From the human T2T-CHM13v2.0 reference genome, Homo sapiens: a DNA stretch of 64,000 bases. The notes under the pieces are model-generated. The model had not been told where the DNA came from and ran no database searches. It was given only the letters and a program-made list of their open reading frames with translations. The stretch lies in assembly GCF_009914755.1 (NCBI RefSeq), contig NC_060938.1; one strand, written 5' to 3'. Below, in pieces: positions 2,376-61,039 of the stretch (positions are counted from its first letter, which is position 1; the number at the start of each line of letters is the position of its first letter). The translations under genes were made by a program, and so were the position numbers.

Positions 2376-5300
2376 TATGCACCATAATTTCTTCAGGCAC
2401 TATCTTGCTTTCAACTATTTTATAATTATAAATAATGTTCTGAAGAATGTCTGTTCACAAAGTGTTTTCCTTATGTGTGCTAGCCATTTGTTTTCTTTTA
2501 GAAATTGTGTTATATCCTTTTTGCCGATTTCTTAAGGGATTTGTTCTTTTTCTTATTAGCTTATGTATGTTGTTTGCATAATAATGGTACAAGACCTTTA
2601 CATATTAGATTAATATTATTTGAGTTTATTATTTACTCTTGTTTTGATGATTTTTAAATGTAAAGAATCTGTAAAGGTGTTACCTAGCTTCATGATTTGG
2701 GTTTGCAGTGAAGCCTGCCCAACTTTGGGCAGCTGTCTGGGCCTGTGTTTCCAGAGCTTGAAGGAGTCTCTGCTTCCCTCTGGAGGGCTGGTGTGATATC
2801 AGTGTTCTCTGTCCAGGCCTGGGTGCCCTCCTGGGTCTGGGCTTGGGCTGGGCTCTTAGATGTCTCAGAGAAATTGAGACTCTATTAATCATCTGAGTCT
2901 TTCCATTTCTGGTGAGATGATCATGGGTCATCATTGGCCTGAGTGGTGGGATGAGCTATAAATAGTTCTAAATTCCTGGTGTAAGTCCTTGTTCAACGAG
3001 ATGGACAGAATTTGGCCTTCTAGGATGTCATTTATAACATTTGGCTCTTTGCCAAAATGCAAGTTAGCCCATGTTTTACTCTGGGGACTGTGAATTGTGA
3101 TCCCTTTAATAGACTTTCCCATGTTCCTCCAAATCCTGGAGCAGTTCTTATGGGAACTGATTAGTTTTGTGAAAGTCTAAACTTCACCCATAAAGCCATC
3201 TTGGCCTGAAGTCATCTGTGAGGGCAATTATTTAATAATCTTAATGCTTTCTTGAGGATTACTGTTCCAATTATGATTTCCATTTCTCCTTGAGTCAGCT
3301 TTAAGTTTTATTGCTAGAAAAGAAAAATGCCAACTTGCCGTCATCTCTGCTGTCACTATTTTGTGTTCAACAATTGCCTTCTCTATCTGCTGTATCTTTT
3401 TCAGCACAGAAGCTGTAATGTTATTAAACAAAGCAATGTATCCAGATCACTCAGAATCTATGCCTGTCACGGGGAGCAGGAGAAGAGGGTGAATGAAGAG
3501 CCACAGCATGGCAGGGGAGCCACTGCAAGGATGCTGAAACTCGTGTGAACAGAGTTGCTGTAGGCAGGCTGCTATGGAACCTTTTGGGGAAGCACTGCCT
3601 CTTAGGGATGGCAGTGAAAATGGGAGAAGAGGGTGGCATTGCCTCCAGATGGAAGATGTAGTGCTTTGCCTTGCTCCTTGGTGCTTGGAGAGGGAAAGGG
3701 ATGCTGCTGTAAAGTTCCTGGCTGGACTTTGGCTTGATAAAGCACGGGCACCTTTGGGAGTATGAGGGTGGGTGGGTGTGCACATCTTCCATGAGGAGCT
3801 GTTAGTATTGGGGCAGACGTTTCAAGTATGGCAGACAAAGGATGTTCTGCGTGGGGAAATGTGGTGACACCCATTTCACAAGGACAGCTCACATAGATTG
3901 AGTGCTCAGGAAGGACCAGCACCATACCCAGTGCCTGATGTGTATCATCTCAATTAGTCCTTGCCTCAGATGCAAAAGGAAACCATCGCCATCATCATCA
4001 CCACCATCATCATCTTCCTCCTGTGCAGATGGAAAGGCTGAGGCATAGAGAGGTGACGGAGTCTGCCCAGGACTGCAAGCCTGCTGGTGGCAGAGCCAGG
4101 TTCCAATGGAATGAAGGCTGTCATCCTCAGATGGCAGGGTAGGCAGGTGGCTAGAGCTCACTTGGGAGAAGGGGAAAGGACACTGACTTTGGCTAGGGAT
4201 GGAGCAGAGCTTGGGCTGGCTTTCCATGCACGGGCAGGGGGCGTGGCTCATGACTACGCTCCAGCCCCGGGTGTGGACATTGAATCTTCCAGGTCTACCC
4301 TAGGCTATGGGTCTGGACAGCACTGTGATGGAAAGAAGACACTCTATGTCCTGCATTCTGTGACCAATGATGTGACTGTGGGAATGGCGCTGGCATCTGG
4401 CTGCCACTCTGGGACGGGTGGCCAGCTGCCATCAGGCCCCACCCAGGATGGGACCACCATGCGACTTCTTCCCTCGCTCCTCCTGGTCATGTCCAGAGCC
4501 CCAGGAGGACCAGCAAAGCCTCTCGAGCCGATGGCAGCTCACGTTCTGCCTTGTCAGCTACTCCTCTCCTGGGCAATATTGGCTGCTTGCTGTGGCTCTC
4601 CCCGGGGTATGTGACTGCCTCTGTGCTGGGCACCTGGCCTGGGCTTTCCTTCTGGGCCTGGGCAGCTGGGCTCAGCTTGGACCCAGGCAGCAGCCACAGA
4701 GGGGCCCATGGAGGTGACAGAGTTGCTTCTATGATGGTGAACGGGCAGCTGTGACACGGAGGAGGCGACCACTCCTCAGTTTCCAAGTGCTGCGGTCAGG
4801 GCCGGGGCCAGCAAAGTCCCTCCCATATTCAAAGAGCGGGTTTGGGTTTGTCCCAGGAGGACATAGTCAGGAGCCCATGCTGGGACATGCCTCCTCCAAA
4901 GTTCAGCCTGGATCCCCAGCCTCTGCCAACGGCCCCGCTCCTTAGCTAACCCAGCTTGCTCCTGGGTTCCACGGCGGAGTCAGATGTTTCTGGGCAGTTT
5001 CACCTTTGTGCCTTAAATGCATGTTGAGGACTTTAAGGAATTGTGGAGAAATAGGGCTGTGGCAAAGGCAAGTGACAACTGGGAACAATGATCCCGCAGA
5101 GGCTGCTGAGGCCTGGGCCCCAGGGGCGTGGGTTCATCCTTCTGCCTGGGCTTTGGTGGGAGGGGCAGACTCTGTGGTCTGAGACACAAAAAAACCCGAA
5201 ACATATGTGTGTACAGACACACAGCAGAGCCACACACACACTTGTGCCCATGCACACACTCACAGGAGGCCCGTGGACTCCGCACAGGGAAGAAACTCCT

Positions 5301-18706: not shown

Positions 18707-19444
<738 letters not shown>

Positions 19445-23085: not shown

Positions 23086-24206
23086 TCCAGGCTACACTTG
23101 AAGCATTTCTTAGGTTCAGTTCAGAGCAGCCTTTAGTCCTGAATTAATGTGGCACCACTACTCACGAGATTACTTCGGAAGATTGCTTGAAGCTTTACAT
23201 ATCTCAAGGTCTTTCCACCCTGGCTGGGAGAACACAAACAATGCTTTCCTTGTGTAGGCTCTGTGTAGTTTTGGGTCCACAGGTTTCTGGTGATTTCCCC
23301 CTGATATCGAGTAGTTTCTTTTCATGCAGGCATAAGTCAGGCATAAGTCAGTTCTCAGCCCCAAACCTGAGGGATCCCCCTCCCTGCGGCAAGTCTCCAG
23401 CTGTTCTCCCCCCGCCCCACCCCGGCCCATCCTGGCTGCACAGCAGCCTGCTCCCCGGTGCTCCTCCCCTCGGGCTGCTGCTGCCTTGAACTCTGCTCTC
23501 TGTCCGCTCAGCTCACTAAGCCTTTCCGTGTGTCCTGGCAGCTGCTTTCAGGCAATAGCAGGATTCGTTCATTTGTTTTTCTTTTCTCAGGGGTTATGAT
23601 CCTGTGATGCTTGTTTCCAAATGTCTGAAAACTACTTTTTCAAAACATTTCCACCTCAGTGTTCTATTTGTTTAAGGAATGTGGGTAAGTGCATTTTACC
23701 CACAGGGCTTGAACCAACATTCAAAATTTTATGTTAGAACCTGTTAAAGACAAAGGGCAAAACTGATCACAAACTCAAATGCAGGACAGTTGCACTGCGA
23801 TTCTTTTTTCGTTAGGTTACAGCCCTTATGTGTTGTACTCCGCGGGCGCAGGCTGAGAGCCGTCTGCACCTTTGTTACTGCGGCCCGACGCCCTCTTGCC
23901 AGGGCCACAGCAGCATCCCCCGGGTCACCGAGCCGGGGCTTTCCCACGTGCCTCCTTACAATTGCTATGTTTCTGCAAGCAGAGGCCCAAGGAAGTATGA
24001 AGCACTCCTCAATATCTAAATTAGCTAGCAAAACTCTACAGGGTGATTAAAAAAAAAAAAAAAAAACAACTGTGAAGGTGAGAGGTGCAGTGAGTCCTTG
24101 GCAGAGGCCGTTTGCTCAGGGAAAGTAAAACCAATGACCTGACTCAACGCGGACACGTCTGCCCCGCCCCCTAAAACCTGCTTCTGGGGCCGCTGTGTGG
24201 TCTGGA

Positions 24207-24220
24207 GCGCCGCCTGGTGG
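24207..24220 (-). promoter_or_regulatory. RSS-adjacent CTCF motif of IGHVII-1-1
   Basis: Minus strand CCACCAGGCGGCGC, ~21 bp past the nonamer, the typical position of VH-associated CTCF sites. Confidence 0.7.
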
Positions 24221-24241
24221 TCTTGTGCTTCCCTGCAGGGA

Positions 24242-24653
24242 GGTTTGTGTCTGGGCTCACGCTGAGGTCCCCATTCTGTCTCCCACGGGAATGTGCGGCC
24301 CTGCCCTTGGCCATCACGGAGCTCAGCTGCAGGGATAACTGGGCCTTGGATGTGTCTCTACAGATGGAGAGTTGGCCCAGAAAGGCTGGGCTGAAGTGTG
24401 TGCTGCCCCTGGAGCTGAGGTGCCCCAGCGCCTTCCCAGAGGGCTGCTGGGTCCAGGCCCAGAGGTCTGTGAGGACCTCACCAGCCCTGGGCATGACTCC
24501 AGTAGCTGCATCTGATGCAGGACACTCAGGGACAAGAAGCAAAGAGATGAGTCACAAGCGGACACCACAGCCCACAGCCCCCGTTCTGAAATCTCTGAGA
24601 CACTCACATGGAGGTACAGCCATCAGGCAGAGGACGACACACAGAGATCTCAT
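24242..24653 (-). pseudogene. IGHVII-1-1: Clan II VH pseudogene
   Basis: VH4-like leader MRSLCVVLCLMAVPP (24653-24608) followed by GTGAGT. QMQLLESCPGLVRSSQT is followed by an internal deletion/frameshift, then WTQQPSGK...RDTSKAQLSLQLSSV. The nonamer ACACAAACC is intact but the heptamer has decayed to GACAGAA. Confidence 0.85.
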
Positions 24654-26109
24654 GTTTTCCTCAACAAGGGGCTCGACTTTCTCAGTGGCCTCTCCAGGAC
24701 AGAACAAGAAAAAATAACTGGCTGTCTCTAGTTTGAGGTTGCATTTCGCTGGGTCTCTGGGATGGAAATGTGTCTTGTGTCTTCAGGAGTCTGCAGGGCA
24801 GCCGCTGCTGTGACTCAGGTAGAAACTTCTCTCCCCTGATGTCCTGGCCCCTCGTTATCCCTGCCACAGTGCAATCAGACTGGGCACCGCTTTAGGGAGA
24901 AACGGAGGACATGGAGTGAGGGCAGGGTAGTGGAGACTATTGAAGAGAGTCAAAACTCTCCAGGGGTAGAGACGCCTCCAGGACCCCTTGGCATTGTTTT
25001 CTTCACTTTGCAGGAGTAGGAAGGAGCTGAGAGTCTAGACAGAGCCTCAGATGCACAACCCTGATTTGGCATATCGGGGAGCAATCTCATCAGCCCAGGA
25101 GAAGGCCCAGGAGAAGGGGCAGCTCTTTGTGCCTCTGCAGAGAAGCGGCAGGGACTGGGAGGACATTTTCCCTGCCCAGCAGGTGGTGCTGCCTCCTTGT
25201 TCCCTGCCTGGCACAGCCTCGGGGTGCAGCTGCTGGCTTTCCCAGGGTCTGTGGAGAGCGTCTTCTTGGTACTTCCTTAACGTCAAATAAAGTGAATGCC
25301 TTCTCAATGCACATCTTAATTCATCATTGGAAAGGCCAAGACACACGCACACACACATCTATATGTTTTTCTGACAAGAGCTAGAGACAATTGATAAGTA
25401 TGTTATCTGACTGTAGTTCACCTTAAGGAGGAAAAAACTATTAAGAAATTTCTTAAGTGTAAATTGTGCCTAATTATGAGTAAATTAGTAACAGAAGTAA
25501 AAAATAATAACTGCAGTCAACTTATACACTTTAAAAGAATACTCTGTGAAACAATGACGTGTTATCAAAAAAGGGACACTTAATTTGTTATGTGTGGTGA
25601 TGGTCAATGAGCAGACTCGTGTTCTTGCTGGAGAAGTCGCAGCATCCCCACAGGTGGACTTCCTGCAGCAATCTTGTGTGTCTCACACTTCTGTCCAAAG
25701 CATGTAAGGGGGGAACTCAGTGCGCACAGGAACCTGACGCCTGCCACCCAAGGGATGCGTGAGCTTCCGTATAAGCAGAAGAAGATGGAAACTTCAGCAC
25801 CTGCAACAGAAGAGGCTTTCTGCTTTGGGGACCCAAACAGTTCCATCTATGGTGGAGATGTAGGCTCATTCCTACATCAACGTCAACAAGCCATTGGACA
25901 CAACAACATTTAGGAGTAGTCGACCGCACCTTCTCCAATGTGGCCTGCACAGCCCAGGCTGCAGGGTGGGAGAGGTCGATTCTGGAGAAAAGTCATTCCT
26001 GCTCCCCTGGTACACTCTCCTCCCCCACTGCTTCATACAGGGACCAATGTGATGATGCCATCATGATGTTGAAGCACACACTGAGCCCTGTAATCAATTA
26101 GAGGGCTTT

Positions 26110-46135: not shown

Positions 46136-48829
46136 AGTTTCCATAGTCTGTGGTGTAGACTAGGTGAAATGGAGTTTACAGCCTCCTGAAGGGTAACACC
46201 CAGACTCTCACCTGAATTCCCTGAAATCCTGTGCCCTGGGGATTGGAGAAACCTTAAAACCAAAGCCACTGTTAAGTTAGCTCAGTCTTTGATTGAGCAT
46301 GGCCATCTGCCTATACTTGGCTTCCAGGGCTGGGTGAAGGAGAATTCCTGCCTGGAACAAGGTCACATTACAAAGAATCTTCACAGTGCTCATGAGACAT
46401 CTCAGACCTTCCATCAGAAGCATTCAGGATGGCAGGAGACTGGACATGATGAGCAATATGGGGATAGGAGGAAGGAAACAGAGAACGGAAGGAGGTGACA
46501 GCTGACAAGGCCTTGTGTTCTCAGATGCTGAGCATGAAATGAAGCATTTATGATGAGGGAAACAGAACAGATGTACGGTACAATATTAAATATAAAGCAG
46601 TAAATTACAGCAGGTGGCTTCACAGCAGCTTAGACATAGCAGAAGAGAAGAGGATGGAATTGGAAGATCGATGCTCAGGACGGATGCAGAGTGAAGCCGA
46701 GGATCCGACAAAGAGGATTTGGGAGATGCAGGCTTTGGGAGAGAAGGAGGGGGATTGGAAGAAGAAAGAATGTTTGAAAGTACTCCATAGAGAACCAGGA
46801 CAGCCCCTGGGGCCAAGCAGCCCATGACCCTTGCAGCTTCAGAGGTCCAGACTCCAGCCTGGCCTCACATGCTGGTTGGTCTTATCCCTGCCAGGCCAGA
46901 ACCCTCTTCAGAACCCACTTCAGAACCCAGAGCCCCCACAGCTCTCCCTCACCCTATGCCCGGGACATGTCTCCCGTGCACTCTTCCCTGGCCCACAGGT
47001 GGGAGTTTACACCTGCTTGGGTGGCCTCGGCATCCACACCAACAACCTGTTAGCAGTTGTCCTGCTCCCTCCACCTGGCACAGCGTGAATCTCCCACAGT
47101 GCAGGCCCCGTGTTTGGGAGTGATTAGGACACACAGGAGGGCAGGTCAGGACAACAGGTGCTGAGGCAGGCAGATTTCGAGGATTTAAGTGCCGATGCTC
47201 TTGGAAGACCATTTCCATGGGGTTAATGGTGGTTTTTCTTGGTGAACTGTTGGCTTGTGTTTTTGATATTGCTGTTGCTCTAAATAGTGTTTTCCTGGCT
47301 TCAATACAAACTCTATTGGTCATGTTCTTTGTTAAAATACGTATCATTCTAAAAGTTCACATGGCATTAGATTTTTTGCTCAAACTACCTATAATATTTC
47401 TCCAACAGAGTGCACATTTGCCTTCCTTTCACACATACCTCCGCCCCCTGCCCTGAGCAGAGTCCCAGTGGTTCCCATCTGTTTAGGGGGTGGGGCAGGG
47501 GACACAGGCCCTGACGCGAGGTGGGGCCGTGCCAAGCGTGGTGGTCTTGCACGGGCACTGAGTGGGTGGGCCCTGGAGAGAGGAGAGGTCATTCCCCCTG
47601 GGGAACGCCCCAGGCCACAGGGGAGAGGTCAGCTGGAGCGTGAGGTGGGGGGCGGAGATGCATAAAGGGTGGGATGGGGCCTGCTGCTCTATCAGCAAAA
47701 CCCCTCACACCCGAAGGACACATAGAGGGAGGGCACTGTATTCACTGACCTCACACTTAACTGTCCATTAGCGTTCACCCACAAAATAATAGAACACACT
47801 GACAGAGGCACAGGAATGGATTGCTCGCATCTTTATGACAGCTGAATGGAGGAAATTTCTAACAGGTTCAGAGAAAGGATATCAAGCTGTGTTTGGAGAA
47901 AGGGGTGGGAATTCTAAACAATATCTATGGAAGCAGGACATCTAGAACCACGGATGTATTCAGAAAAATGCTAGATCTCAGTACTACCCTAGAATACCAA
48001 CAGTTTTCTGTGGATGGTATGGGAAGGGTGATTTCTTCCGTCGGTGGGCTTTGCCTTTGAAATTCTCTCTGACATATCTACACTGCATTTTAAAAGTCAA
48101 TATTAGTGTGAATTTTAAGTTAAAATAAAATGTTATCTCATTCAGTTATTTATACATTTAACTTCCATTTTCCTTTACAATAACTCAGTGATACACCTAG
48201 CCCTGTTTTCCACCCGGACCAGCCTGTGCTGCTACAAGCCTGGTTTCTCTTCCTCATCACGACTTACTCAGCTTCCCTTCCTGTTTCAGTTCAAGGAAAT
48301 GTGGGGGCAGGAAGAAAGGGGGCAGCTGCCACTCACAGAGCTCACACTAAATGACAGACAGCTTGCCCCTCACGTCTACCTATTTTTCTAGTTGAATTTC
48401 ATTGCATGCAGCAATCGACCTCAGGGATTCATTTTCCCACATACGGGAAGCTCGGCCCCAGGTAGGGGGATTTGCTTGGTGGGGGATTTGAACCCAAGTC
48501 CCTCTCACTGAAAAGCCCACAGCACCCCCGTGAGGAACAGACAGGGAACAGGGAGTAGCCCTGGATCACCCTAAACTGACTTCGGGTTTAGAGAAGGACA
48601 GATTACCTGGGGAATGAGGAAGCTCATTGCTCTGGAGCTCTCTTCTGGAGAAATGTCATGAATGTTCCCTGTAAGGAGCTGGTGGCAACTTCCGTTAATT
48701 CTGGGACCAGAGACCTCAGGTCAAGAGCCAGATGCTCATTCATGTCTCTCCAGGCAAGAGGTTCTGGCCAAGTTTGGGCTCCCAGAGGAGTCTAAGAAAA
48801 TGTGGAAGGCACCAATGTGTTTTTGAAGA

Positions 48830-51236
48830 TTTATTTCAGAGTGAGCATCAGCGACCTACAAGAACCTGGGACAGAAGCCAATGCCTCCCGTTTCCCTGTG
48901 ATGTGAAACAGGACCCTGTGCTTCCTGTGGACTTCAAGAAATGTGGACTTGAGCTTTGCCATCCCTTCCCCTGATCCTGTTTCATAGATTTTGCTGTTAT
49001 ATTCTCTGTATCTTTACAGGGATCGGGAGGCTGAATTAGTGTTATTCAGGGTTAGTAACTGTCCCTTCCTTAACGGTGGTGGTCCTGATAGTTCGCACAT
49101 TTTTGGCTGTCCCAAAGAGCAGTGCAATTATGAAGGCGTAAATACGACCAAAGACCACTCTCAGATACATCACTGATTGCTGGCTTTGTTTGACGGAACG
49201 TGTTCTTTTTGGAGGTGGCCCGCTGTTGACACTCCCACCAGCACCTCTTCTTAGGCACAGTGGAGGATCCCAGCCTATATGGCAATGGCAGTTCCTTCTG
49301 TTGTTGCAGACTCCTCTATGACCGCACTTCTGAGGGTGGCAGTTGTAGCCCAGTGAAGTGATAGTCACATTGCACTGGGTGTTATTACAGAAGTTTCCAT
49401 GAACACAAGGAGTGCCATCTATCACACGCCCAACATCAGTCGTGTCTGTTGCATGGTGTTCATCCAGTCCAAAACACTGAAACCCTCCTCTCACTGAGTG
49501 ATGGAATGAAACACGTTCCTGCAGCCGGGGAAGATGGGTCACATTGGTACACTGCAGTCTTCCACAAAACTTATCTATTCCTGCACAAGCCTGGTAGCTG
49601 AGATATGTTTGTTGTCTAATACAATGTCCAAATCGGTAGCTTTCAAGATTTATGTCATAGCAGACCTCGGGAGCATCCTCAGCACTGACACCAAAGATCG
49701 CCTTGCAGAGCACATTGCGATCAGTGCAGTTCCCACGATAGCAGTAGCCTTCTTCAGTGCACGGGGTTCCATCTTGCGTATAAACGTTTGCGGGACATGT
49801 CACGGTGGTCCCGTGACAGTACTCTGGAAGGTCACATATATTTTGGATAGGTCTGCAGAGAGTCCCTGGTGGGGAGAAGCTGCAGTTTGTACAGCACTCT
49901 CCTATATGGCAGATGCTCCCCGGTGTTAAGTGACAGTCACTTTGGCAGCAATAACTGGCATAACACTGCTTGAAGGAGCCACAGTCACATTCCTCCCTCC
50001 CCTCCACTATGAGGTTTCCACAGCGAACCGTTGTCATGGTTTCGTTATACACAGGAGCAAGTGTTTCAAAAACACACTGGCCTGAATGTATAAAACAATT
50101 TTGTGCATGTCCATAAGAACAGTTACTGAACGCATCTGTCATCCCAGGAAATCGCTGCATAATGCAGGAGGCCCTTCTCTGACATGTGCAGTAGTTATCA
50201 TCATACTCCAGACCAATACTTCTCATCTGTGTCTGGGTTATTATGACGGCTACCAATAAATAATGTCTGCCTGGAGTACCAATGTGTAACAGGGCTATAC
50301 GGGAACAGAAGTTATACCTTTCAGGTTCATAGTTAGATTCATGTGGCACGTATTTAATAAGTAGTGTGGATGAATGAACATGAAAAGTATCAAAAAAAGT
50401 TGTTTTAAAATAGGTAAACATTGCACTCTGAATTCGATATTCATTCACAGGGGCTGGGTCACGATTATTATATATGGTCAAAAGATAAATATAGTACCGC
50501 AGATCAATATTTTGAGCAATGCTGTCAATGAGACTGAACATCTGGACCACCTCTTTGGAACAAGTTGTAATATTGCCATATATGCGATAATATGAATTGG
50601 AACATTGAACGTGGCCTTTTATATTGCCTCTATGAGAACTATACAGCGAATTAGATATCCTGGGATTCATGCTGTCATTTGCTTCAGAGAACAGGGGGTC
50701 TGTCTCATTGTCATCATCTCTAAATGTGGGCCCTGTTGCGTTGGGCTCGGCCACTATCTGAAAAACAACATGTTCAAACCTGCGGGAATCCTGGAGGGGT
50801 TTGATTTCGTACGCAAGGTCGTCCAGCCTCATGATGCCTCTGAGGTCCCCATAGCACGTGTCGACGGTGACCATGGACAGAGGCACCTCCTCCAGGTAGC
50901 CGAGGTACTAGCAGTCTGGAGGGATGTAGGGGTCACCCATCTGCAAGACTCCTTGGTCATCCTGAGTTGTCACCAGCAGATGTCTAGGCCAAAGAAGGTG
51001 TTTCCTCCGCATGTGAATGACGTGTCTTTGACCCCAAAACACAGGCTGTAGGACAGCCAGCCGGGAAACTGAAGGCCTTTGCTATGGTGTGTCTCCTTCC
51101 TGGGAATCACCACCTCGGAGGAGGCGTAGTGCCACAAGGGACGGCCTTGAGAACACCGGACCGGAGCCAGGAGCGCCCAGAGCCCCAGCAGCAAGAGGGG
51201 GGTCCTAAGGGTGACCCGCGCCTCTGCCCGCCTCAT
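48830..51236 (-). pseudogene. ADAM6: ADAM6 pseudogene with an intronless coding region
   Basis: Signal peptide from ATG 51236; 1-bp frameshift in the G-run near 51032-51035; TAG at 50910-50908; then a 614-codon frame with disintegrin (CGNLIVEGREECDCG, CDLPEYC), Cys-rich, EGF-like and TM regions, stop at 49042; AATAAA at 48835-48830. Confidence 0.93.
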
Positions 51237-51839
51237 GTCCCAGCCCAGCGATAGTCATCCAAAGACAATGGGAAAGGAAAGGACTGTCCTGGGCGAAGCC
51301 AGGCCCCAACCAGCTGCGGTGGCTGCGTCCCTCCCAGGGAGACCCTGACAGAGAACAAAGGGCCTCCCCAGGCTCCCGCACCACACCCCGGGGGGCACCT
51401 GGACTCCGGGAGGGAATGAGGTAACAGTCCCAGGGCGGGGCAGGGGGTGGGCCTGGACAGGACGGCAGCTGCTGCACTGCGGGATGAGGCTGAGGGTCAT
51501 GGCTGTGAGGCCTCATCGGGGAGGGAAAAGGGAGAGGGAAGCAGGGCTGTCTCTTTTACCACCGTCAATCTTTTCCGTTTCTTTCTGAATCTACAAAATG
51601 CAATGATGTGCGTCCAATGCCCTTGCATCACCCGTGTTATTCTCGGTTGCTCTGTGGGTTAATAGTGCTCCTTTCTGTGGCTCACACTGCTTACTCCTTT
51701 GTCATGTGGAGGTAGACACTGCCAATATTTTCCTTGGGGACTGAATGTTTTTCTACTCTTAATAAGTACCCATGTCTTATTCTTTTTGTTGTTGTGTTGT
51801 TTTGTTGTGGCTTTGAAGTTTTGTTTGAAGTTACCAGAT

Positions 51840-52165
51840 TGTGAAAGGAAAATATCTTGGGCCCCGTCAAGCTGGAAACCACTCAGGACAAATCTGCCTC
51901 CCAGTCTATTTAAAGTTGTCCCTCTGCTCACAGAGACAGGTGCATATCCTCATGGCCTCCTTTGCAAACACTTATCAGAAACTCAAAAGAATGCAACCAT
52001 CTGTCTCTCACCTACCTGTGACCTGGAAGCCCTAAGTGGGGAGGACTTGCTTTGAGTTGTCTCAGCCTTTCTGGATGGAACTAATGTCCTTCTTACTTAT
52101 ATTGACTGATGTCTCATGTGTCCCTGAAATGCGTAAATCAAGATGTGCCCGACCACCTTGAATCC
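51840..52165 (+). mobile_element. MER4-group LTR fragment
   Basis: TGTGAAAGGAAAATATCTTGGGCCCC...AGAAACTCAAAAGAATGCAACCAT...GACCTGGAAGCCC. Confidence 0.65.
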
Positions 52166-52874
52166 AGAGTTCCTGGATTCACAAGATCAACAGTTGATAT
52201 AGGGTAACTTTTTCTTCTGTGCTATGTAAAACTCTTGTGAATTATGATACTTTTTACTTAGTCCATCTATTGGGAACAGATGCTATTCCTGACCCCATCA
52301 GAGCCCCAGGTGCTGTCCCTCCGATGCTTCTGTGTGGTTCTCTCCTGGTCTTTGGTCATTTCTTCAGATGCAGGAGCTGATCAGCTCTCAGGGAAGGGCA
52401 CAGGGGGCCCTCTGTGGGTGTCTCATGTCTGAGAACTAACGTTTCACATATTTCTGCCAATTCTGTCATTGCTTATGAGGGGAGGGAAAATCCAAGGCCA
52501 GATCATAATCAGAAACACAAATTACTGTTTCTTCAAAAGTGTAAATATTTCCCTTTCCTGGCGAATGTGGTCACTCCATTTAAACTTAACGTGACCGTGG
52601 TGTGTTTCGAAGGCTGCGCTGTGTGGCACTTTGTCTTCCAACGCCCCGTACTCCCATCTTCCATCGCTTCAAATCCTGCCTTTTTACCACAGATGAACGA
52701 TTACTAATGAAGCTGGTTTCCCCTCTACGAGTGTGCAGGTTGAACGCCCTTTCCCTACCCCTTTAAGGCTTTCACAGGGAACAGAAGGAAAATATTTGAC
52801 ATCCCTGAAGGAGGCTGCTAGGGAAGACTGTGTTCCTCCTAAATTCTTGTGCTGAAGTCCCAACCCTTGGTCCT

Positions 52875-53965
52875 GTCCCCACATGGCCCCTTCCCTGAGA
52901 TGAGCTCATCTGTCCTCTTCCCCAAGGTGAGCACACCTGTCCCCACGTGGACCTTTCCCTGAGACAAGCACACCTGTCCCCACATGGACCCTTCCCTCAG
53001 AGGAGCATAACTGTCCCCATGTGGACCCTTCCTTCAGATGAACTCACCTGTCCCCACGTGGACCCTTCCCTCCAGAGGAGCACACCTGTCCCCACGTGGA
53101 CCCTTCCCTCAGAGGAGCACACCGGTCCCCAAGTGGACCCTTCCTTCAGACGAGCTCACCTGTCCCCACGTGGACCCTTCCCTCAGACGAGGTCACTTGT
53201 CCCCATGTGGACCCTTCCCTCAGATGAGCTCACCTGTCCCCACGTGGACTCTTCCCTCAGATGAGCTCACCTGTTCCCACATGGACCCTTCCCTGAGACA
53301 AGCACACCTGTCCCCATGTGCACCCTTCCCTCAGAGGAGCACACTTCTTCCCTGAGAAGGTGGACTCTTCCCTGAGGCAAGAACACCTGTCCCCAGGTGG
53401 ACCATTCTCTCCGATGTGCACACCTGTCCCCACATGCACCCTTCCCTGAGAGAAGCACACCTGTCCCTATGTGGACCCTTTCTTGATACTAGCACACCTG
53501 TCCCCACATGGACCCTTCCTTGAGACAAGCACACCTGTCCCCACTTCGACGCTTCTCTCAGATGAGCACAACTGTCCCCACCTGGACCCTTCCCTGAGAC
53601 GAGCTCACCTGTCCCTACTTGGATTCTTGCCTTAGACAAGCACCTCTGTCCCCACGTGGACCCTTCCCTGAGAGAAGCACACCTGTCCCCAGGAGGACCC
53701 TTACCTCAGACAAGCATGCCTGTCCCCAGGTCAACCCTTCCCTCAAAAGAGCTCACCTGTCCACATGAGGACCCTTCCTTGAGACAAGCACTTCTGTCCC
53801 CTCAGACAAGCTCACCTGTCCCCATGTGGACCCTTCCCTGAGACAAGCACACCTGTCTCCATGTGGAACCTTCCTTCAGACAAGCACACCTGTCCCCACA
53901 TGGACCCTTCCCTGAGACAAGCACGCCTGTCCCCATGTAGACCCTTCCTTCAGAGGAGCTCTCCT
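52875..53965. repeat. 37-bp minisatellite, ~29 degenerate copies
   Basis: Consensus CACCTGTCCCCAYRTGGACCCTTCCCTSAGAYRAGCW; for example starts at 52934 and 52971. Confidence 0.95.
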
Positions 53966-53967
53966 GT

Positions 53968-54290
53968 GCTCAGACACCACCAGGGGGGCTCAGACACTAA
54001 TAGGGTGGCTCAGACACTAACTGGGGGCTCAGACACCATCAGGGGTCCTCAGACACTAATAGGGTGGCTCAGACACTAAGAAGGGGACTCAGACACCACC
54101 AGGGGGCTCAGACACTAGCAGGGGCACTCGGACACCACCAGGGAGGATCAGACATAAGGCGGGGGGGCTCAGAAACCACCAGAGGGGCTCAGACACCACC
54201 AGAGGGCGCCCAGCAACCAAGGGATGCTCAGAACCTACGGAGGGGCACTCAGGACCTACAGGGGTCGCTCAGGACCTGGCTCAGGAGCAG
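53968..54290 (+). promoter_or_regulatory. Tandem ~20-bp repeat array of CTCF-like motifs
   Basis: About 15 units of CTCAGACACCACCAGGGGG; strong cores CCACCAGGGGGC (54096-54107) and CCACCAGAGGGCGC (54196-54209). Confidence 0.7.
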
Positions 54291-54927
54291 ATGCAAAGTG
54301 AAGCTGAGGTTTCCGTTTTCTCTTTGGGGATTCCTTGTCCTGCCCTGCAAAAGCCTTGCTCAGCAGCTATTATTGTTTCTTCCCTGGAATTCCCTAGTTC
54401 CTCTCATCTGAAAAGGACATAGAGCAGAAATCCCATTTAACTTTTCACACTTCATTTTCAGTCTCCTTCTAGCGATATTTCAGTAAAATATTAATAAGAA
54501 ATAATGAAGCCACAGTCCAAATGTTAGCATCATGCAAAGATTTGTGTGTCTTCTCCACTCTGTCAGTTATGCCTTAGGAAACTCTTCTCTCAATCCACTG
54601 CTCAGTGTACACTATGATGTTGTGTTTTGTTCTTTGCTTTCATCTGCTTTGCAGGGAAATGAAGCACCATTTATTGGGACGTGTCCTCCATTTCTGATGG
54701 ACTCCCCGTGGTCTCCACCTCAGACGGTTTTGCCACCATCTTTAATCCGTTAATGCCTTCAATCGACCTCACCATCCATGTAATGAAGCAATGAATGCCT
54801 TTACCTCATCTACTTGTGTCTCCATGAGTCAGTTCACTTCTCTCCATTCTCACAAAGGACAGCCAACCTCAGGCCACTGCTTCAGAGCCTCCTGCAGCCT
54901 TGGGTGGTCAACCTATTAAAAAGCCCC

Positions 54928-57019
54928 TGCTGTTTAGAAAGGATGTGTATTGGAAACTTAATCCCAAATTCCATAGTGTCCAGAGGTGGGAATGTTAAGA
55001 AATGATTAGGTCATGAGGGCTCTGCCCTCATGAAGCAATGAATGCCATTATCGTCAGAGTAGGTTACTCATTGTGGTAGCAGATTAGTTACTACAGGCCT
55101 GGGTTCCTCATTAAAAAATGAGTTTAAACCCCTTTCCATCCTTCGCACCTGCTCTCCTGCCTTCCACATGGACATCACAGCAAGAAGGCTCTTGCCAGAT
55201 GCTAACACCTTGATATTGACTTCCCAGCCTCTAGAGCTGCGAGAAAATAAATTCCTTTTCCTTATACTTTAGCCAGTGTGTGGTATTCACTCATTGCACC
55301 ACAAAGTGGACTAAGACGAAAAATCAGTATCAAGAGGTGGGGCTGTTGCGATAACAAATACCCCAAAATGTAGAAGTGGATGTAGTAATGCACAAAGACT
55401 GGAATAATTTGGAGGATCAGACTATAAAAAGTCTGGATTGCCCTGAATAGAACACTAGAGGTGATTCTTTTGAGGACTCAGAAGAAGAGAGCTGTGAGGA
55501 AATTCTGAAACTTCTTAGAGATTATTTAGGTGATGACCATTAGATGTCAGTAGAAATGTGGACAATAAAGGCCGTTCTGATGAGGTCTCAGGAGAAAAAG
55601 AAGAATAGCTCATCGGAAAATGGAGCAAAGGCCATCCTTGCCATAAAGTGGCAAAGAACGTGGCTGAATTGTGTTCATCCCTAGGTCCTTCTGTAAGGTG
55701 GAAGTTCAGAGCCATGAACGAGGTTATATGGTGGGAGAAATTTGAAGGAAATCTATGGCCTCACTTCTAGCAGGCACTTTAGGACTCTGTTCCCGGTGTC
55801 CAGGCACAGCACTCCTTGGCTGCCCATGCTGTGGCTCAGGAGGACCTAGGTGTGGCTCAAGCCATCACTTTAATGGTACAAGTCATCAACTTCCATGGCA
55901 TCCATGTGTTGTTAATTCTGCAGGTGTGCAGAATACAAGAACCACGAGGGCATGGCTTTCTCCACCTAGATTTCAAAGAATGCTGTGGACGGCCTAAGGT
56001 CTCGGGCAGCCTAAGGACAGCCTAAGGTCTCGGGCAGTGACTTGTTGCAGAGACAGAGTCACCACACTGGGCCCTTAGCACAATGCCAAGCAGAAATGTG
56101 GGTTTGGAGGTACCACAAAGAGTTTCCAGTCAGCCTAGGAGAGCTAGAGGCCTGAGAGTCCCACCTGTGAGAGCGGCTGAGTGGACTGAACCCAGAAAAT
56201 ATATAGAGGCAAGACTGCCGGAGGCCTTGGGGGCCCATCCCCCTCCCCAGTGTGCACAAGATGCCGTTAAAGAGGATGATTTTCCAGCTATAAGACTTAA
56301 TGTTTTTTTCCCTGTTGGGTTTTGAACTAGGCACCGCTTTCTCCTTGCCTCTCTCTGAGCTTTGGAATGGGAATTTCTATCCCATACCTGCCCCATTGTT
56401 CACTGTATTTGAAAGTAGATAACTTGTTTTGACTTTATAGGCTCGCAGATGGAAACAATTTATATCAGGCTAAATTGTGCCTCGAGTCACACTCATATCT
56501 GATTTAGATGAGACTTTGGACTTCAGACTTTTGCACTGATGCTGGATAAGACTTTGGAGACAATTGGGATGGAATGAATGTAATTTGCATTGTGATAAGG
56601 ACATAAATTTTGATATTAGGAATGGAATGCTATGGTTTAAATGTGTCTCCCAAAGTTTAGGATCTGGAAATAATCTTTAATGCAACAGTGTTGAGAGGTG
56701 GGACCTTTATTATGTGATCAAGTCATGAAGGCTCTGTCCTCATGAATGGATTACTGTCACTATCAATGGAGTGGGTTAGTTATTATAGGAGTGAATTTCT
56801 AATAAAAGATGGTCTCCTTTCTCTCGTGGACAAATGGTCTCTTGCTCACCCACCTCTGCTGTGAGATGAGGCAGTGAGAAGTCCCTTGTGAGATGCCAGT
56901 GTCTTGATATTAGACTTCTCTGACTCAAGCACCATAAAGCATAAATTCCTTTTCTTTAGAAATTGCCCAGTCTCTGGTATTCGGTTATAGTAACAAAAAG
57001 ACAGACTGAGACTAAGCCA
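54928..57019 (+). mobile_element. MST-family MaLR provirus: LTR 54928-55318, internal region, LTR 56628-57019
   Basis: Two similar LTRs (GTCATGARGGCTCTGYCCTCATGAA, ending GACTAAG) flank a MaLR internal region. Confidence 0.75.
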
Positions 57020-58257: not shown

Positions 58258-60622
58258 GCCTCTGTTTCTTTAACAATACTTTCTGGAGATTGTTTTTCCC
58301 TTGAGCAATGTTTCCTCTCTGCTGTATTTACACAGTTTTCCTTTCCCATGGGTTGATTTAAGACAGTGACAATTTATTTATTCTATGTCTGGTAATTTCA
58401 CTGAGAAACTTAATGAATAGCCACTTGAAACCATCTGGTGCCACTGAGAAACCATCTGAAGGACACAGATTTTCTGAGTGTAGGCCACAACCATATTTTA
58501 ACACTTTTTAAATTCAAAATCGGGGTTTAAATTTTGATATTTTACTATGGCTTCTTTGATTCCCTCCCAAGATCTAACCATTGAGCGTGTGAAAAGGGCT
58601 GGGACCCAGGTTACGGCTGTGCTTGGCATGATGACGTCCTGCAGAAATTCCTTTGGCTTTCTACATGGAGCTCAGCCTCCGTATCAGCCAGCTCACCAGG
58701 AGGTCAGAGTACTTTTCAAAGATCCTCATTGTGTTGTTTCATTGTGAGAGGTTTCCAGCCCTCGTGAGACACCCCTTGGTTTTACAGTCATCACGAACTT
58801 GTTTACGATTCCGAAAACATACCTGCCATCTGTCCATATGTTTGTTCTGCGGCTTTTGATTTGCTAAAATGCTGTAGTAACTGCAATAAGTTCTACCATC
58901 TGGATTAATTTTCACCTCAGATGGAAGAGTATATTTTAAGATAAAGATAAAATAGTAATAGTATATCCTCCTTGGTAGTATCCAGTTCTATACTTTGAGC
59001 TATGGTCTGTCAATAAATAATGTTATGCCAGGGTCCTCAATGGAGTGCCTGAACATCTAAGGAAGGTACAGAAGTTTCCCTAACTAAGATAGAAACCATG
59101 GTGAGCACAAGTTTGCTATGCATCCATGTCTCCGGTCTGTCTCACTATGCACCTGACACTCATTTTAACCTCACCAGGAAGTCAGTTAACTTCCAAATCA
59201 GTTTATTGTAATGCTTCTAGGTAATTATATGTGGCAATTTCAGGCAGAAATGAATAAAAATCTTCACCAGAGAATCTAATACAGAAGAATGCAAGAGGCC
59301 CTGGGCTTGTTTTCATAAAAGCATCATACACCAGGCAGTTGATTCTTTCAGCTGTCGGCACTGGCTCACCCAGCATGCGGGCTTCATCCCCTAAGTAAGC
59401 TTCATCATGCATGGATAGGCTGGCGCCTTTCCTGAGGCCATATGCCGATGGATATGCAGCACTGTGCCACACGTCCACAGAGATACAAAATCCCTGATGG
59501 GAAGAACGAGGCTGGATCAACGGGACTGGCAGTTTCTCATTGAGGAAATGTGAGGTCAGTTTCTATGGTGGGCAATTCAGGAAATTACTCAGCAGTTTTG
59601 TAATTGATGGTTATGGAAAAATGAACCGTTGAGATGACTAATGACTTACATTCCATTATTCCAAGTAAGAAACGGACATCACAGTTCGCTGTAACTAAAT
59701 TTTCATAACCAAATGGATTACTTTAAATTTCTTCCTACATCTTCTCTTAATAATTTTTAATAACGAATGTGTCTTACCTATATTCCCAATATTTAAAACT
59801 GGGTTGTCAAGAGAGTCTAGAGAATTTGAGAACTAGGAACAGTGAAACTCCTGTATGTTCAGCAGCTCCCAAAGCAACACAATATTCCCCAGGAACACTG
59901 TTCTGTCCTCCAGCATAATTCATGCTTGTGTATTTCCTAATGGCTCCAATAGTGACCCTCCATTCCCACCAAACATTTGGCCTCCCCTCTCTCCACTTCC
60001 CCTCCATTCATACATTACACTCTCAGCTCTGTCTAGGGTGTCATAAAAGCCAGCGGACGGACCCTCCTGATCTCCTGAACATGAAAGCCAGCACTATCAT
60101 GTGATGGGCTCCTCTTGGCATGGTGACCTTCAAAGGCACCTCATTTAAATAATCACCTTTTTTTTCCTTCTGTAACAAAGTGTTTCTTTCCATTGTGCCT
60201 TCCCATAAGCAGTTTAACATAATTTACTGTCCGACCACAGTTATTAATACACACAAATGCCACAACCTCTTTCTAGCCCAAGAGACCTGATTAATTCTTC
60301 TTTGGGGATGAGCACACCCTAGAAACACATCCCATTCACATAAACACGGGCACACCGATGACGTGTTCTTGAGTCTACACCATTCTCCGTCCAACTCCAT
60401 GAGCCCCTGAAGACCAAGACAGGCTCTTTCACACCTGTGCAAGCTCCGGCCCAGGGACGGCCTGCTGAGGAATGGGCTCAGCTGGGTCTGGGTGCTGGGT
60501 TCATCTCTTCCCCTCTCCTGTCCCAAAGCAGGTCCATCACCCTGCTCAGGTCTGAACAGGAGTGTCTAGGTTTTTCTGGCCATCCGACTTTTTCAATGTA
60601 TAGAAGCTCTCCTATTACCTAC

Positions 60623-61005
60623 TGTATTCATTTTATAGGGCTTTTATAACGAAATACCACAGATCGGATGGCTTACAATACAAAACCAATTTCCTCACAC
60701 TTATGGAGGATGAAAGCCTAAGATCAAGCTGCCAGCTGGGTGGGTTTCCTCTGAGGTCTCGCTCCCTGGCATGCAGATGGCGCCTTCTCACTGTTCTGTG
60801 GTAACATGGCCGTCCCTCGGGGCCTGTGCACCCTCCCTCCTGCTTCCTCTTCTTATAACAACAGTCAGATTGCATTAGGGCCCCACTCCAGGAATCTCAC
60901 TTTAACTTATTCACCTCTTTAAAGGACACTAATCCAAGTATGATTTCATTCTGAAGGACCAAGGGTTGGGACTTCAGCACATGAATTTAGGAGGGACACA
61001 GTCTC
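60623..61005 (-). mobile_element. MLT1A/B-like LTR
   Basis: TGTATTCATTTTATAGGGC...AAATACCACAGA...GGCATGCAGATGGCGCCTTCTCACTG...GAATTTAGGAGGGACACA. Confidence 0.75.
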
Positions 61006-61039
61006 CCCTAGCAGCCTCCTTCAGGGATGTCAAATAAAA

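What the first reader, a model, noticed from the sequence alone, without database searches (positions are those of the whole stretch)
53968..54300. CTCF-motif array appears to be an amplified VH 3'-flank with no V gene, in the opposite orientation
Seen: units such as ACACCACCAGGGGGCTCAG and ACACCACCAGAGGGCGCCCAG all read on the + strand. The array end (GGGATGCTCAG at 54221...CAGGAGCAG) shares words with the minus-strand 3' flank of IGHV6-1 (GGGATGCTCAG 18777-18767; CAGGAGCAG 18724-18716). Its core resembles the IGHVII-1-1 site GACCACCAGGCGGCGC. No V exon or RSS precedes it. Inference: an RSS-adjacent CBE was tandemly amplified and inverted, so it would be convergent with CBEs of the more distal VH genes.
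Basis: partly seen in the sequence, partly recalled or inferred. Interest (0 to 1): 0.75.

Follow-up and report, generated by a model that had tools for sequence, protein, structure and literature searches.

The report
Inverted V-less CTCF repeat, IGH locus
A short tandem repeat between ADAM6 and IGHV1-2 in the human antibody heavy-chain locus is the back-to-front leftover of an old V-gene unit that lost its V gene; it keeps a few good CTCF-binding motifs that point the opposite way from the others examined in the locus, and those motifs were already listed in a 2019 catalogue.

Summary
Window 53968-54280 is a 20-bp minisatellite of about 16 units. It abuts a 37-bp minisatellite at 52929-53967.

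Only 3 of the 16 units are good CTCF motifs, at 54093, 54193 and 54252. All three are on the + strand. 54193 is the best match in the 64-kb window.

The array and at least 590 bp of its downstream flank are homologous to the arrays that start just after the RSS of IGHV(III) pseudogenes elsewhere in the IGHV locus. I examined 12 such arrays. All are on the minus strand, and 11 directly follow a V(III)-like pseudogene. In four of those loci the same 37-bp repeat lies about 0.6 kb upstream of the V.

In the window the two arrays touch and no V exon or RSS is present. So this is an inverted, V-less, partly decayed VH unit, old enough to be shared with chr15 orphon copies.

The three sites match hCTCF.7-9 of Ciccone et al. 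2019 by sequence and list order, so the motif cluster is already in print. Its ancestry and reversed orientation are not discussed in the parts I read.

CTCF occupancy and any looping role are untested. That includes the convergent pairing with the minus-strand array 24 kb distal, which would enclose IGHV1-2.

The parts
52929..53967 (+). 37-bp minisatellite of about 28 copies, rich in E-boxes. It is the counterpart of the 37-bp repeat that lies about 0.6 kb upstream of IGHV(III) pseudogenes in four minus-strand modules.
   Evidence: TRF. blastn to L009, L010, L011 and L015, all hits on the minus strand. 21 CACCTG/CAGGTG and 6 CACGTG.
53968..54280 (+). 20-bp minisatellite of about 16 units, consensus GCTCAGACACCACCAGGGGG. 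It is a tandem amplification of the CBE-bearing unit that follows the VH RSS.
   Evidence: TRF. Unit parse and PWM. Genome-wide relatives found only in IGH and its chr15/16 copies. Lineage-specific unit variant.
53974..53992 (+). Weak CTCF-like unit, PWM 6.1. It matches hCTCF.7 (CACCACCAGGGGGG).
54093..54111 (+). CTCF motif, PWM 15.0. It matches hCTCF.8.
54193..54211 (+). Best CTCF motif in the 64-kb window, PWM 20.1, and the only exact match to CCASYAGRKGGCRS. It matches hCTCF.9 and is identical in the chr15 paralogue L002.
54252..54270 (+). CTCF motif, PWM 12.0, kept in L002.
54219..54293 (+). Array tail that is collinear with the post-nonamer flank of IGHV6-1 (pre-unit AGGGATGCTCAG, 2-3 units, exit CAGGAGCAGATG).
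54281..54873 (+). Unique flank homologous to the flanks below the minus-strand V(III) arrays. Collinear patches reach 56461.

Best explanation
Window 52929-54873, with patches to about 56.5 kb, is the remnant of an ancient IGHV gene unit. It lies in the orientation opposite to the V genes annotated or detected in the stretches examined.

An intact unit of this kind reads, in V orientation: 37-bp repeat, then about 0.6 kb of promoter region, then an IGHV(III) pseudogene with its 23-RSS, then a 20-bp repeat array, then the flank. In the window the roughly 1.0-1.2 kb that would hold the promoter, V and RSS is missing, and the two arrays touch.

The 20-bp array is a tandem amplification of the CTCF-motif unit that follows the RSS nonamer in VH genes. 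This lineage amplified and homogenised its own unit variant.

Three of the 16 units remain good CTCF motifs. All three point towards the distal VH region, as the IGCR1 CBE1 site is recalled to do in mouse, and against the VH-associated sites.

Shown here: the anatomy, the homology, the orientation and the loss of V and RSS.

Inferred, with my estimates:

- CTCF binds at least the 54193 site (about 0.6).
- When bound it stalls cohesin arriving from the VH side but not cohesin reeling out from the D-J side. That would make it a minor proximal anchor for VH-domain loops (about 0.35).
- Nothing shows that it is maintained by selection.
For: - **Relatives are confined to IGH.** Whole-genome search: all 89 matches listed lie in the chr14 IGHV region or in chr15 and chr16 regions. 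Those regions are IGH orphon zones from recalled knowledge.
- **Module structure.** L009 reads, in minus orientation: 37-mer 5879->5574, IGHVIII-2-1 4937->4636 with RSS, then the array 4556->2454. L010, L011 and L015 show the same order with 1.0-1.2 kb between the arrays.
- **V(III) adjacency.** A V(III)-2-1-like pseudogene sits right upstream of 11 of 12 minus arrays in 11 loci.
- **Flank homology.** Seven of the 9 loci searched match, all on the minus strand.
- **Missing V.** The inter-array piece of L009 hits only V6-1 and VII-1-1 in the window. There is no V or RSS in 51357-54300.
- **Strand census.** Pattern census in chr14: 4 hits on +, all in this array, against 42 on minus in 10 clusters. 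PWM sites >=11 inside the 12 minus arrays examined are all on the minus strand (for example 61 in L009). The few + sites >=11 in those loci lie outside the arrays.
- **Unit variant.** CAGACAC[CT]A occurs 9, 4, 7 and 7 times in the window, L002, L003 and L004, against 0-1 in each minus locus.
- **Age.** The chr15 copies L003 and L004 are 87% identical over 53969-56429, and the array is already inverted and V-less there.
Against: - Flank identity to the V(III) modules is only about 63%, while those modules are 77-84% identical to each other. This copy is therefore an old outgroup and may descend from a different V family.
- No V remnant is left, so 'lost its V' is an inference. L003 and L004 lack the 37-mer and break homology exactly at the array start. 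The abutment may therefore not be one simple deletion.
- 13 of 16 units score below 11.
- The chr15 orphon copies, outside the IGH locus, keep equally strong motifs: L002 20.1 and 12.0; L003 17.1, 13.4 and 17.5. Motif retention here therefore needs no IGH-related selection.
- No occupancy data could be consulted.
- The PWM was recalled from memory, though two published consensus strings agree with it.
Confidence: 0.8

Rival explanations
1. It is a selected regulatory boundary. On this view the VH-facing CBE cluster acts like a second IGCR1-type anchor upstream of IGHV6-1. It pairs with the minus-strand array 24 kb distal to enclose IGHV1-2 in its own loop and so shapes V usage.
For: In window coordinates 1-86000, the + cluster at 54093-54270 is followed by no minus site >=12 until the IGHVIII-2-1 array at 78.4-80.6 kb. 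That array holds 56 sites >=12, all on the minus strand. IGHV1-2 (65669-66106) lies between them. The best site scores 20.1. Gene-usage QTLs in human IGH are enriched in CTCF-bound elements (PMC10362067, passages).
Against: - There are no occupancy or contact data.
- The same arrangement and motif strength persist in the chr15 copy, which lies outside the IGH locus.
- Most units are decayed.
- The cluster has one orientation only, not the divergent pair recalled for IGCR1.
Confidence: 0.15
2. It is an inert decaying minisatellite. The motifs are unbound in vivo, for example because of chromatin state or methylation, and nothing follows from their orientation.
For: 13 of 16 units score below 11. 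Copy number differs between paralogues, about 16 units here and about 9 in L002, as expected for neutral array turnover. None of the papers I found reports binding here.
Against: A 20.1-bit match and the only exact CCASYAGRKGGCRS in 64 kb. One human VH CTCF site (hCTCF.169, not this one) bound CTCF in a gel shift (PMC6746451, passages).
Confidence: 0.35
3. It is a recent inverted copy of the IGHV6-1 3' flank specifically, which is the comparison the reader used.
For: The shared 11-mer and 9-mer lie in the same order. The local alignment scores 32, reached by 0 of 1000 shuffles.
Against: blastn to the V6-1 flank gives E 2.3, against E 1e-41 for the V(III)-module flanks. The similarity covers only about 75 bp of the general VH post-RSS architecture, which IGHVII-1-1 shares. 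The copy predates paralogues that are 87% identical.
Confidence: 0.03
4. It is a chance G-rich repeat that merely resembles CTCF motifs and VH flanks.
For: A short GC-rich unit can mimic the motif. 44 of 1000 shuffles of the array reach a score >=15.
Against: Only 1 of 1000 shuffles gives 3 or more sites >=11. There is long collinear flank homology. The family is restricted to IGH and its duplicates.
Confidence: 0.01

Closest known systems
Human VH 'CTCF hot spots' (Ciccone et al. 2019, J Biol Chem, PMC6746451; I read passages of the main text and searched rows of Table S2)
   Same: Clusters of sites matching the hVH-CTCF consensus ACCACCAGGGGGCG, not tied to a functional V. By sequence and list order, the three sites here match hCTCF.7-9 in Table S2. 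hCTCF.10-59 correspond to the 2.1-kb array 3' of IGHVIII-2-1.
   Different: This cluster is on the opposite strand. The paper counts 174 of 183 sites in one orientation but has no orientation column in the rows I saw, and the word 'tandem' does not occur in its main text. The cluster also has no V(III) pseudogene or RSS beside it, and most of its units are decayed.
RSS-associated VH CBEs (19 or 48 bp 3' of the nonamer in human, per PMC6746451; mouse VH81X-CBE work of Jain et al. 2018 is recalled, seen only as a reference entry)
   Same: The repeat unit is the same sequence element. IGHVII-1-1 carries it 19 bp after the nonamer, and IGHVIII-2-1 about 47 bp after.
   Different: There is no RSS here, so it cannot raise the accessibility of a V to RAG. 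Its orientation is reversed.
IGCR1 CBE1 and the 3' CBE super-anchor of mouse Igh (recalled; orientation statement in PMC6746451)
   Same: The motif orientation is opposite to the VH CBEs, so it faces the VH domain.
   Different: It lies distal to IGHV6-1 and IGHVII-1-1, not between the VH and D segments. All motifs share one orientation, with no divergent pair. No insulation has been shown.
Mouse PAIR elements (Ebert et al. 2011; recalled, not read here)
   Same: A repeated intergenic VH-region module that combines E-box-rich sequence with CTCF sites. Here the 37-bp array holds 21 CACCTG/CAGGTG next to the CTCF-motif array.
   Different: There is no sequence relation and none was tested. Binding of Pax5 and E2A and antisense transcription define PAIR elements, and none of these could be tested here.

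Membership tests
CTCF-binding element | Sequence match to the CTCF core motif | tested here: met
   3 of 16 units have PWM >=11, the best 20.1 (matrix recalled from memory). There is an exact CCASYAGRKGGCRS at 54196-54209.
CTCF-binding element | CTCF occupancy in vitro or in vivo | not testable with these tools
   No ChIP or EMSA data were reachable. Literature searches found none for this site.
Human VH CTCF hot spot / IGHV(III)-module 3' array | Tandem ~20-bp units carrying the hVH-CTCF consensus | tested here: met
   The sites match hCTCF.7-9 by sequence and list order.
Human VH CTCF hot spot / IGHV(III)-module 3' array | Homologous unique flank on the far side of the array | tested here: met
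   54281-54873 against L009, L015, L016, L011, L010, L017 and L014, E 1e-41 to 2e-5, about 62% identity.
Human VH CTCF hot spot / IGHV(III)-module 3' array | IGHV(III)-like pseudogene with RSS directly upstream of the array | tested here: not met
   Present at 11 of 12 minus arrays and absent here.
Human VH CTCF hot spot / IGHV(III)-module 3' array | Same orientation as the VH genes | tested here: not met
   All motifs here are on +. The 42 pattern hits elsewhere in chr14 are on minus.
RSS-associated VH CBE | Fixed distance (19 or 48 bp) 3' of an RSS nonamer | tested here: not met
   No heptamer or nonamer in 51357-54300.
IGCR1-type insulator | Divergent CBE pair between the VH and D segments that insulates the D-J domain | tested here: not met
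   The motifs have one orientation only. V6-1 and VII-1-1 lie on the D side of the cluster (gene table). Insulation itself is not testable here.

The most novel reading that the evidence does not exclude
The reversed CBE cluster is a working, VH-facing loop anchor. With the 2.1-kb minus-strand array behind IGHVIII-2-1 it would form a convergent domain of about 24-26 kb that holds IGHV1-2 alone. It would also shield IGHV6-1 and the D-J region from VH-domain extrusion. Copy-number variation of either array would then tune IGHV1-2 and IGHV6-1 usage between people.
Probability: 0.12. Interest if true: 0.65.

Novelty: already known. Interest (0 to 1): 0.3.

Why it matters
CTCF-site orientation decides which way cohesin loops are anchored during V(D)J recombination. 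In the IGH V region nearly all sites face one way. This cluster is one of the few that face the other way, and it sits just distal to the most D-proximal human V genes.

The report explains why it does so: it is an inverted V unit that lost its V. That turns an unexplained entry in a motif catalogue into a specific test: delete or flip about 300 bp, then read V usage and contacts.

[quoted passage not shown] As it stands, though, the cluster is an ordinary evolutionary relic with no shown function.

Tried and rejected
- **blastn within the window.** blastn of 53900-54900 against the rest of the window gave nothing significant for the V6-1 flank (E 2.3). The link to VH flanks came only from the whole-genome search.
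- **Whole-locus fetch.** The census therefore rests on one pattern search and on about 118 kb of fetched pieces.
- **13-mer pattern search.** The search with the 13-mer core listed only chr1-chr10 before truncation and was of no use for chr14.
- **Literature.** 'IGHV6-1'+'CTCF' gave 0 papers. 'VH6-1'+'CTCF' gave 2, both irrelevant. 'ADAM6'+'CTCF'+'IGH' gave 4, none on this site. 'human IGH locus'+'CTCF'+'IGHV'+'Hi-C' gave 0. 'IGHV1-2'+'CTCF' gave 17, none on this site judging by title and abstract. A search of the supplements of PMC10362067 for ENCODE element names and nearby coordinates found nothing, and one of its files could not be read.
- **Second + cluster.** A + strand motif cluster in L017 (8542-8718) looked like another inverted array. 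It is an unrelated 59-bp repeat near the chromosome end.
- **Transposon idea.** I considered that the flank homology comes from a dispersed transposon. I rejected this because all 89 genome matches lie in chr14 IGH or the chr15/16 regions.
- **V remnant at the junction.** I considered that the last 37-bp unit at the junction is a V remnant. I did not pursue it, because the unit differs from other units of the array by only about 2 bases.

Full report
**What is there**

The finding lies in T2T-CHM13 chr14:100,192,001-100,256,000, between ADAM6 (48816-51356, minus) and RPS8P1. Reading 53500-55100 and running Tandem Repeats Finder shows two abutting minisatellites, not one.

- A 37-bp repeat runs from 52929 to 53967, about 28 copies at about 78% matches.
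- A 20-bp repeat runs from 53968 to about 54280. TRF reports 12.0 copies at 53968-54206 and 2.5 copies at 54226-54277.
- I parsed the second array into 16 units.
- Both arrays share the word CTCAGAC at their junction.

**CTCF motif content**

I scored the window with the JASPAR MA0139.1 count matrix.

- 3 of 16 units score >=11: 54093 (15.0), 54193 (20.1) and 54252 (12.0).
- 5 of 16 units score >=5.
- All of these are on the + strand and none on the minus strand.
- The 54193 site is the best of all sites in the 64-kb window. The window has 14 sites >=11 on both strands together.

Two consensus strings quoted in a paper give the same picture without the recalled matrix.

- CCASYAGRKGGCRS has one exact hit in the window, 54196-54209 on +.
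- ACCACCAGGGGGCG with up to 2 mismatches has four hits: 24208 (-) and 53976, 54095 and 54195 (+). Chance would give 0.46.

Among 1000 dinucleotide-preserving shuffles of the array, one gave 3 or more sites >=11 and three reached 20.1. The motif cluster is therefore real. 'Array of CTCF motifs' overstates it, because most units have decayed, for example into ACACTAATAGGGTGG.

- GGGATGCTCAG occurs twice in the window, at 54221 (+) and 18767-18777 (-), against 0.10 expected.
- CAGGAGCAG occurs four times, including 54282 (+) and 18716-18724 (-), against 1.34 expected.
- blastn of 53900-54900 against the rest of the window does not find the V6-1 flank significant (E 2.3).
- A local alignment of the 100 bases after the V6-1 nonamer with the array scores 32, against 19 for the reverse strand. 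None of 1000 mononucleotide shuffles reached 32.
- That alignment runs collinearly over 54219-54293.

The similarity is real but short.

**Where the strong evidence comes from**

A search of the whole assembly with 53900-54900 gave 89 matches. All lie in the chr14 IGHV region or in chr15 (17.9-19.6 Mb) and chr16 (32-35 Mb). From general knowledge, those are the zones that hold IGH orphon copies. This is therefore not a dispersed transposon.

Within chr14, every other copy of the 20-bp array found is on the minus strand. I fetched 11 such places.

In L009, the minus strand reads as follows:

- IGHV1-3;
- a 37-bp repeat (5879->5574);
- about 0.6 kb of sequence;
- IGHVIII-2-1 (4937->4636), ending in CACAGTG, a 23-bp spacer and ACACAAAGC;
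- about 40 bp of sequence;
- a 2.1-kb array of the 20-bp unit (4556->2454);
- a unique flank.

The same 37-mer-then-20-mer order, 1.0-1.2 kb apart, recurs in L010, L011 and L015. A IGHVIII-2-1-like pseudogene sits directly upstream of 11 of the 12 minus arrays examined. The exception is L014.

**Homology of the window copy**

- The window's flank 54281-54873 aligns to the flanks below these arrays in 7 of the 9 loci searched. All hits are in minus orientation, at about 62% identity, with E from 1e-41 to 2e-5.
- Collinear patches reach 56461.
- The window's 37-bp array matches the other 37-bp arrays only in minus orientation.
- The piece between the arrays in L009 (promoter, V, RSS) finds only IGHV6-1 and IGHVII-1-1 in the window and nothing near 52-55 kb.
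- tblastn and RSS searches find no V exon, heptamer or nonamer in 51357-54300.

So the window holds a complete module in reverse orientation, with the 1.0-1.2 kb carrying promoter, V and RSS missing.

**The unit is the RSS-adjacent CBE**

- In IGHVII-1-1 the nonamer ACACAAACC is followed after 19 bases by GACCACCAGGCGGC.
- In IGHVIII-2-1 the first AACCACCAGGGGGC starts about 47 bases after the nonamer.
- In IGHV6-1 the same stretch holds 2-3 degenerate units (GCTCAGGACCCCAGAAGGCAC, CCAGCACTACCAGCGCAGGGC) and the exit CAGGAGCAGGTG.

These positions match the '19 or 48 bp' classes of PMC6746451.

Amplification is a family trait: L009 alone has 61 sites >=11, all on the minus strand. The inverted lineage has its own unit variant. 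CAGACAC[CT]A occurs 9 times in the window, 4 in L002 and 7 each in L003 and L004, against 0-1 in each minus locus. The variants typical of minus arrays do not occur in the inverted copies. The two lineages therefore expanded or homogenised separately.

**Age**

- The chr15 copy L002 is 94% identical over the non-repeat part.
- L002 has more than 40 copies of the 37-mer and about 9 of the 20-mer, so both arrays change length.
- L003 and L004 are 87% identical over 53969-56429. Their homology starts exactly at the first unit, and they have no 37-mer.
- Instead they carry an oppositely oriented V(III)-like 5' part 0.9 kb away.
- The V(III) modules are 77-84% identical to each other in the flank but only 63% identical to this copy.

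The inverted V-less array is thus old and an outgroup to the V(III) modules. How the 37-mer came to abut the array is not settled.

**Orientation and context**

A pattern for intact units finds 4 hits on + in chr14, all in this array. It finds 42 on minus in 10 clusters.

Across window coordinates 1-86000 (window plus L018, L019 and L009), the + cluster at 54.1-54.3 kb is followed by no minus site >=12 until the IGHVIII-2-1 array at 78.4-80.6 kb. That array has 56 sites >=12, all on the minus strand. IGHV1-2 (65669-66106) lies between the two.

By the convergent-motif rule, which is established knowledge, the + cluster faces the distal VH sites. It would block cohesin coming from that side, not cohesin reeling out from the D-J side. 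That much is geometry. Binding and looping are inference.

**Against a selected function**

- The chr15 copies lie outside the IGH locus yet keep motifs of equal strength: L002 20.1 and 12.0; L003 17.1, 13.4 and 17.5.
- The chr15 copy also keeps the same + and minus pairing, 24.9 kb apart.

**What is in print**

For Ciccone et al. 2019 (PMC6746451) I read passages of the main text and searched the supplement PDF.

- The paper reports 188 computed human sites with the consensus ACCACCAGGGGGCG.
- 174 of 183 VH-region sites are in one orientation.
- It describes 'hot spots' ranging from 3 sites within 100 bp to 50 sites within 2.1 kb.
- In Table S2, hCTCF.6 (GACCACCAGGCGGC) matches the IGHVII-1-1 site.
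- hCTCF.7-9 (CACCACCAGGGGGG, CACCACCAGGGGGC, CACCACCAGAGGGC) match the three sites in sequence and order.
- hCTCF.10-59 run up to IGHVIII-2-1pg.

The cluster is therefore already catalogued. The rows I saw have no strand column. 'Tandem' does not occur in the main text, and 'opposite' occurs once, about IGCR1. Its inversion and origin are therefore not discussed in what I read.

For Rodriguez et al. 2023 (PMC10362067) I read passages.

- It reports a polymorphic tandem-repeat structural variant between IGHV1-2 and IGHV1-3. Equating this with the IGHVIII-2-1 array is my inference.
- It finds enrichment of gene-usage QTLs in CTCF-bound elements.
- It states that human IGH regulatory elements are not characterised in depth.

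My other searches found no paper on this site. Subscription-only papers, such as the 1998 locus sequence paper, were not searchable.

**Verdict**

- the nearest relatives are the IGHV(III) modules;
- only three motifs are strong;
- an abutting 37-bp array belongs to the same relic.

The element is a known, catalogued motif cluster. What is added here is its reversed orientation and V-less ancestry. Function is unproven. I put CTCF binding at about 0.6 and a measurable effect on the repertoire at about 0.12.

Noticed in passing
window 52929-53967: The 37-bp array holds 21 CACCTG/CAGGTG and 6 CACGTG E-boxes in 1.04 kb. The whole 64-kb window has 91 and 11. A dense E-box array next to CTCF motifs recalls the make-up of mouse PAIR elements (recalled), but no binding was tested.
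   Followed up: partly
window 24205-24223 (-) and 25173-25191 (+): Two strong CTCF motifs (17.3 and 18.1) form a divergent pair around IGHVII-1-1. The + site is not among the hVH-CTCF matches.
   Followed up: no
window 24009-24523: The RefSeq span of IGHVII-1-1 (24009-24462) looks shifted. V-like coding similarity runs 24523->24279 and the nonamer lies at about 24250-24242. The annotated 3' part is therefore post-RSS flank.
   Followed up: partly
L009 2454-4556 (window coordinates 78454-80556): The 2.1-kb array behind IGHVIII-2-1 has 61 CTCF-motif sites >=11, all on the minus strand. It fits the '50 sites within 2.1 kb' hot spot of PMC6746451. It may also be the polymorphic tandem-repeat variant between IGHV1-2 and IGHV1-3 in PMC10362067 (my inference).
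   Followed up: partly
L017 8542-8718 (chr14:101,158,542-101,158,736): Four + strand CTCF motifs (11.9-19.1) are spaced 58-59 bp apart in a different GC-rich repeat, about 3 kb from the end of chr14. It is probably a subtelomeric repeat and unrelated to the V arrays.
   Followed up: partly
L003 403-1122 and L004 (chr15): In the 87% identical chr15 copies, a V(III)-like 5' part with its upstream region lies on the opposite strand 0.4-0.9 kb before the array, where the window has the 37-bp repeat. This is unexplained. It may mark an old head-to-head pair of V units.
   Followed up: partly
window 53968-54280 compared with 18790-18804 (-): By eye, the first 15 bases of this lineage's unit (GCTCAGACACCACCA) match the end of the 23-bp spacer plus nonamer of IGHV6-1 (GCCCAGACACAAACC) at 11 of 15 positions. 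I ran no statistical test.
   Followed up: no
window 52800-52874 and 60955-61029: A 75-bp inverted repeat at 96% identity (E 1e-29) has one arm just upstream of the 37-bp array and the other beside the RefSeq enhancer 58918-60117. It may be two fragments of one interspersed repeat.
   Followed up: no
window 2771-2789 (-) and 3639-3657 (+): A weak divergent CTCF-motif pair (13.1 and 12.1) lies 4-5 kb above IGHD1-1, inside FAM30A. It is a candidate for the human counterpart of IGCR1. The position argument rests on recall of the mouse locus.
   Followed up: no
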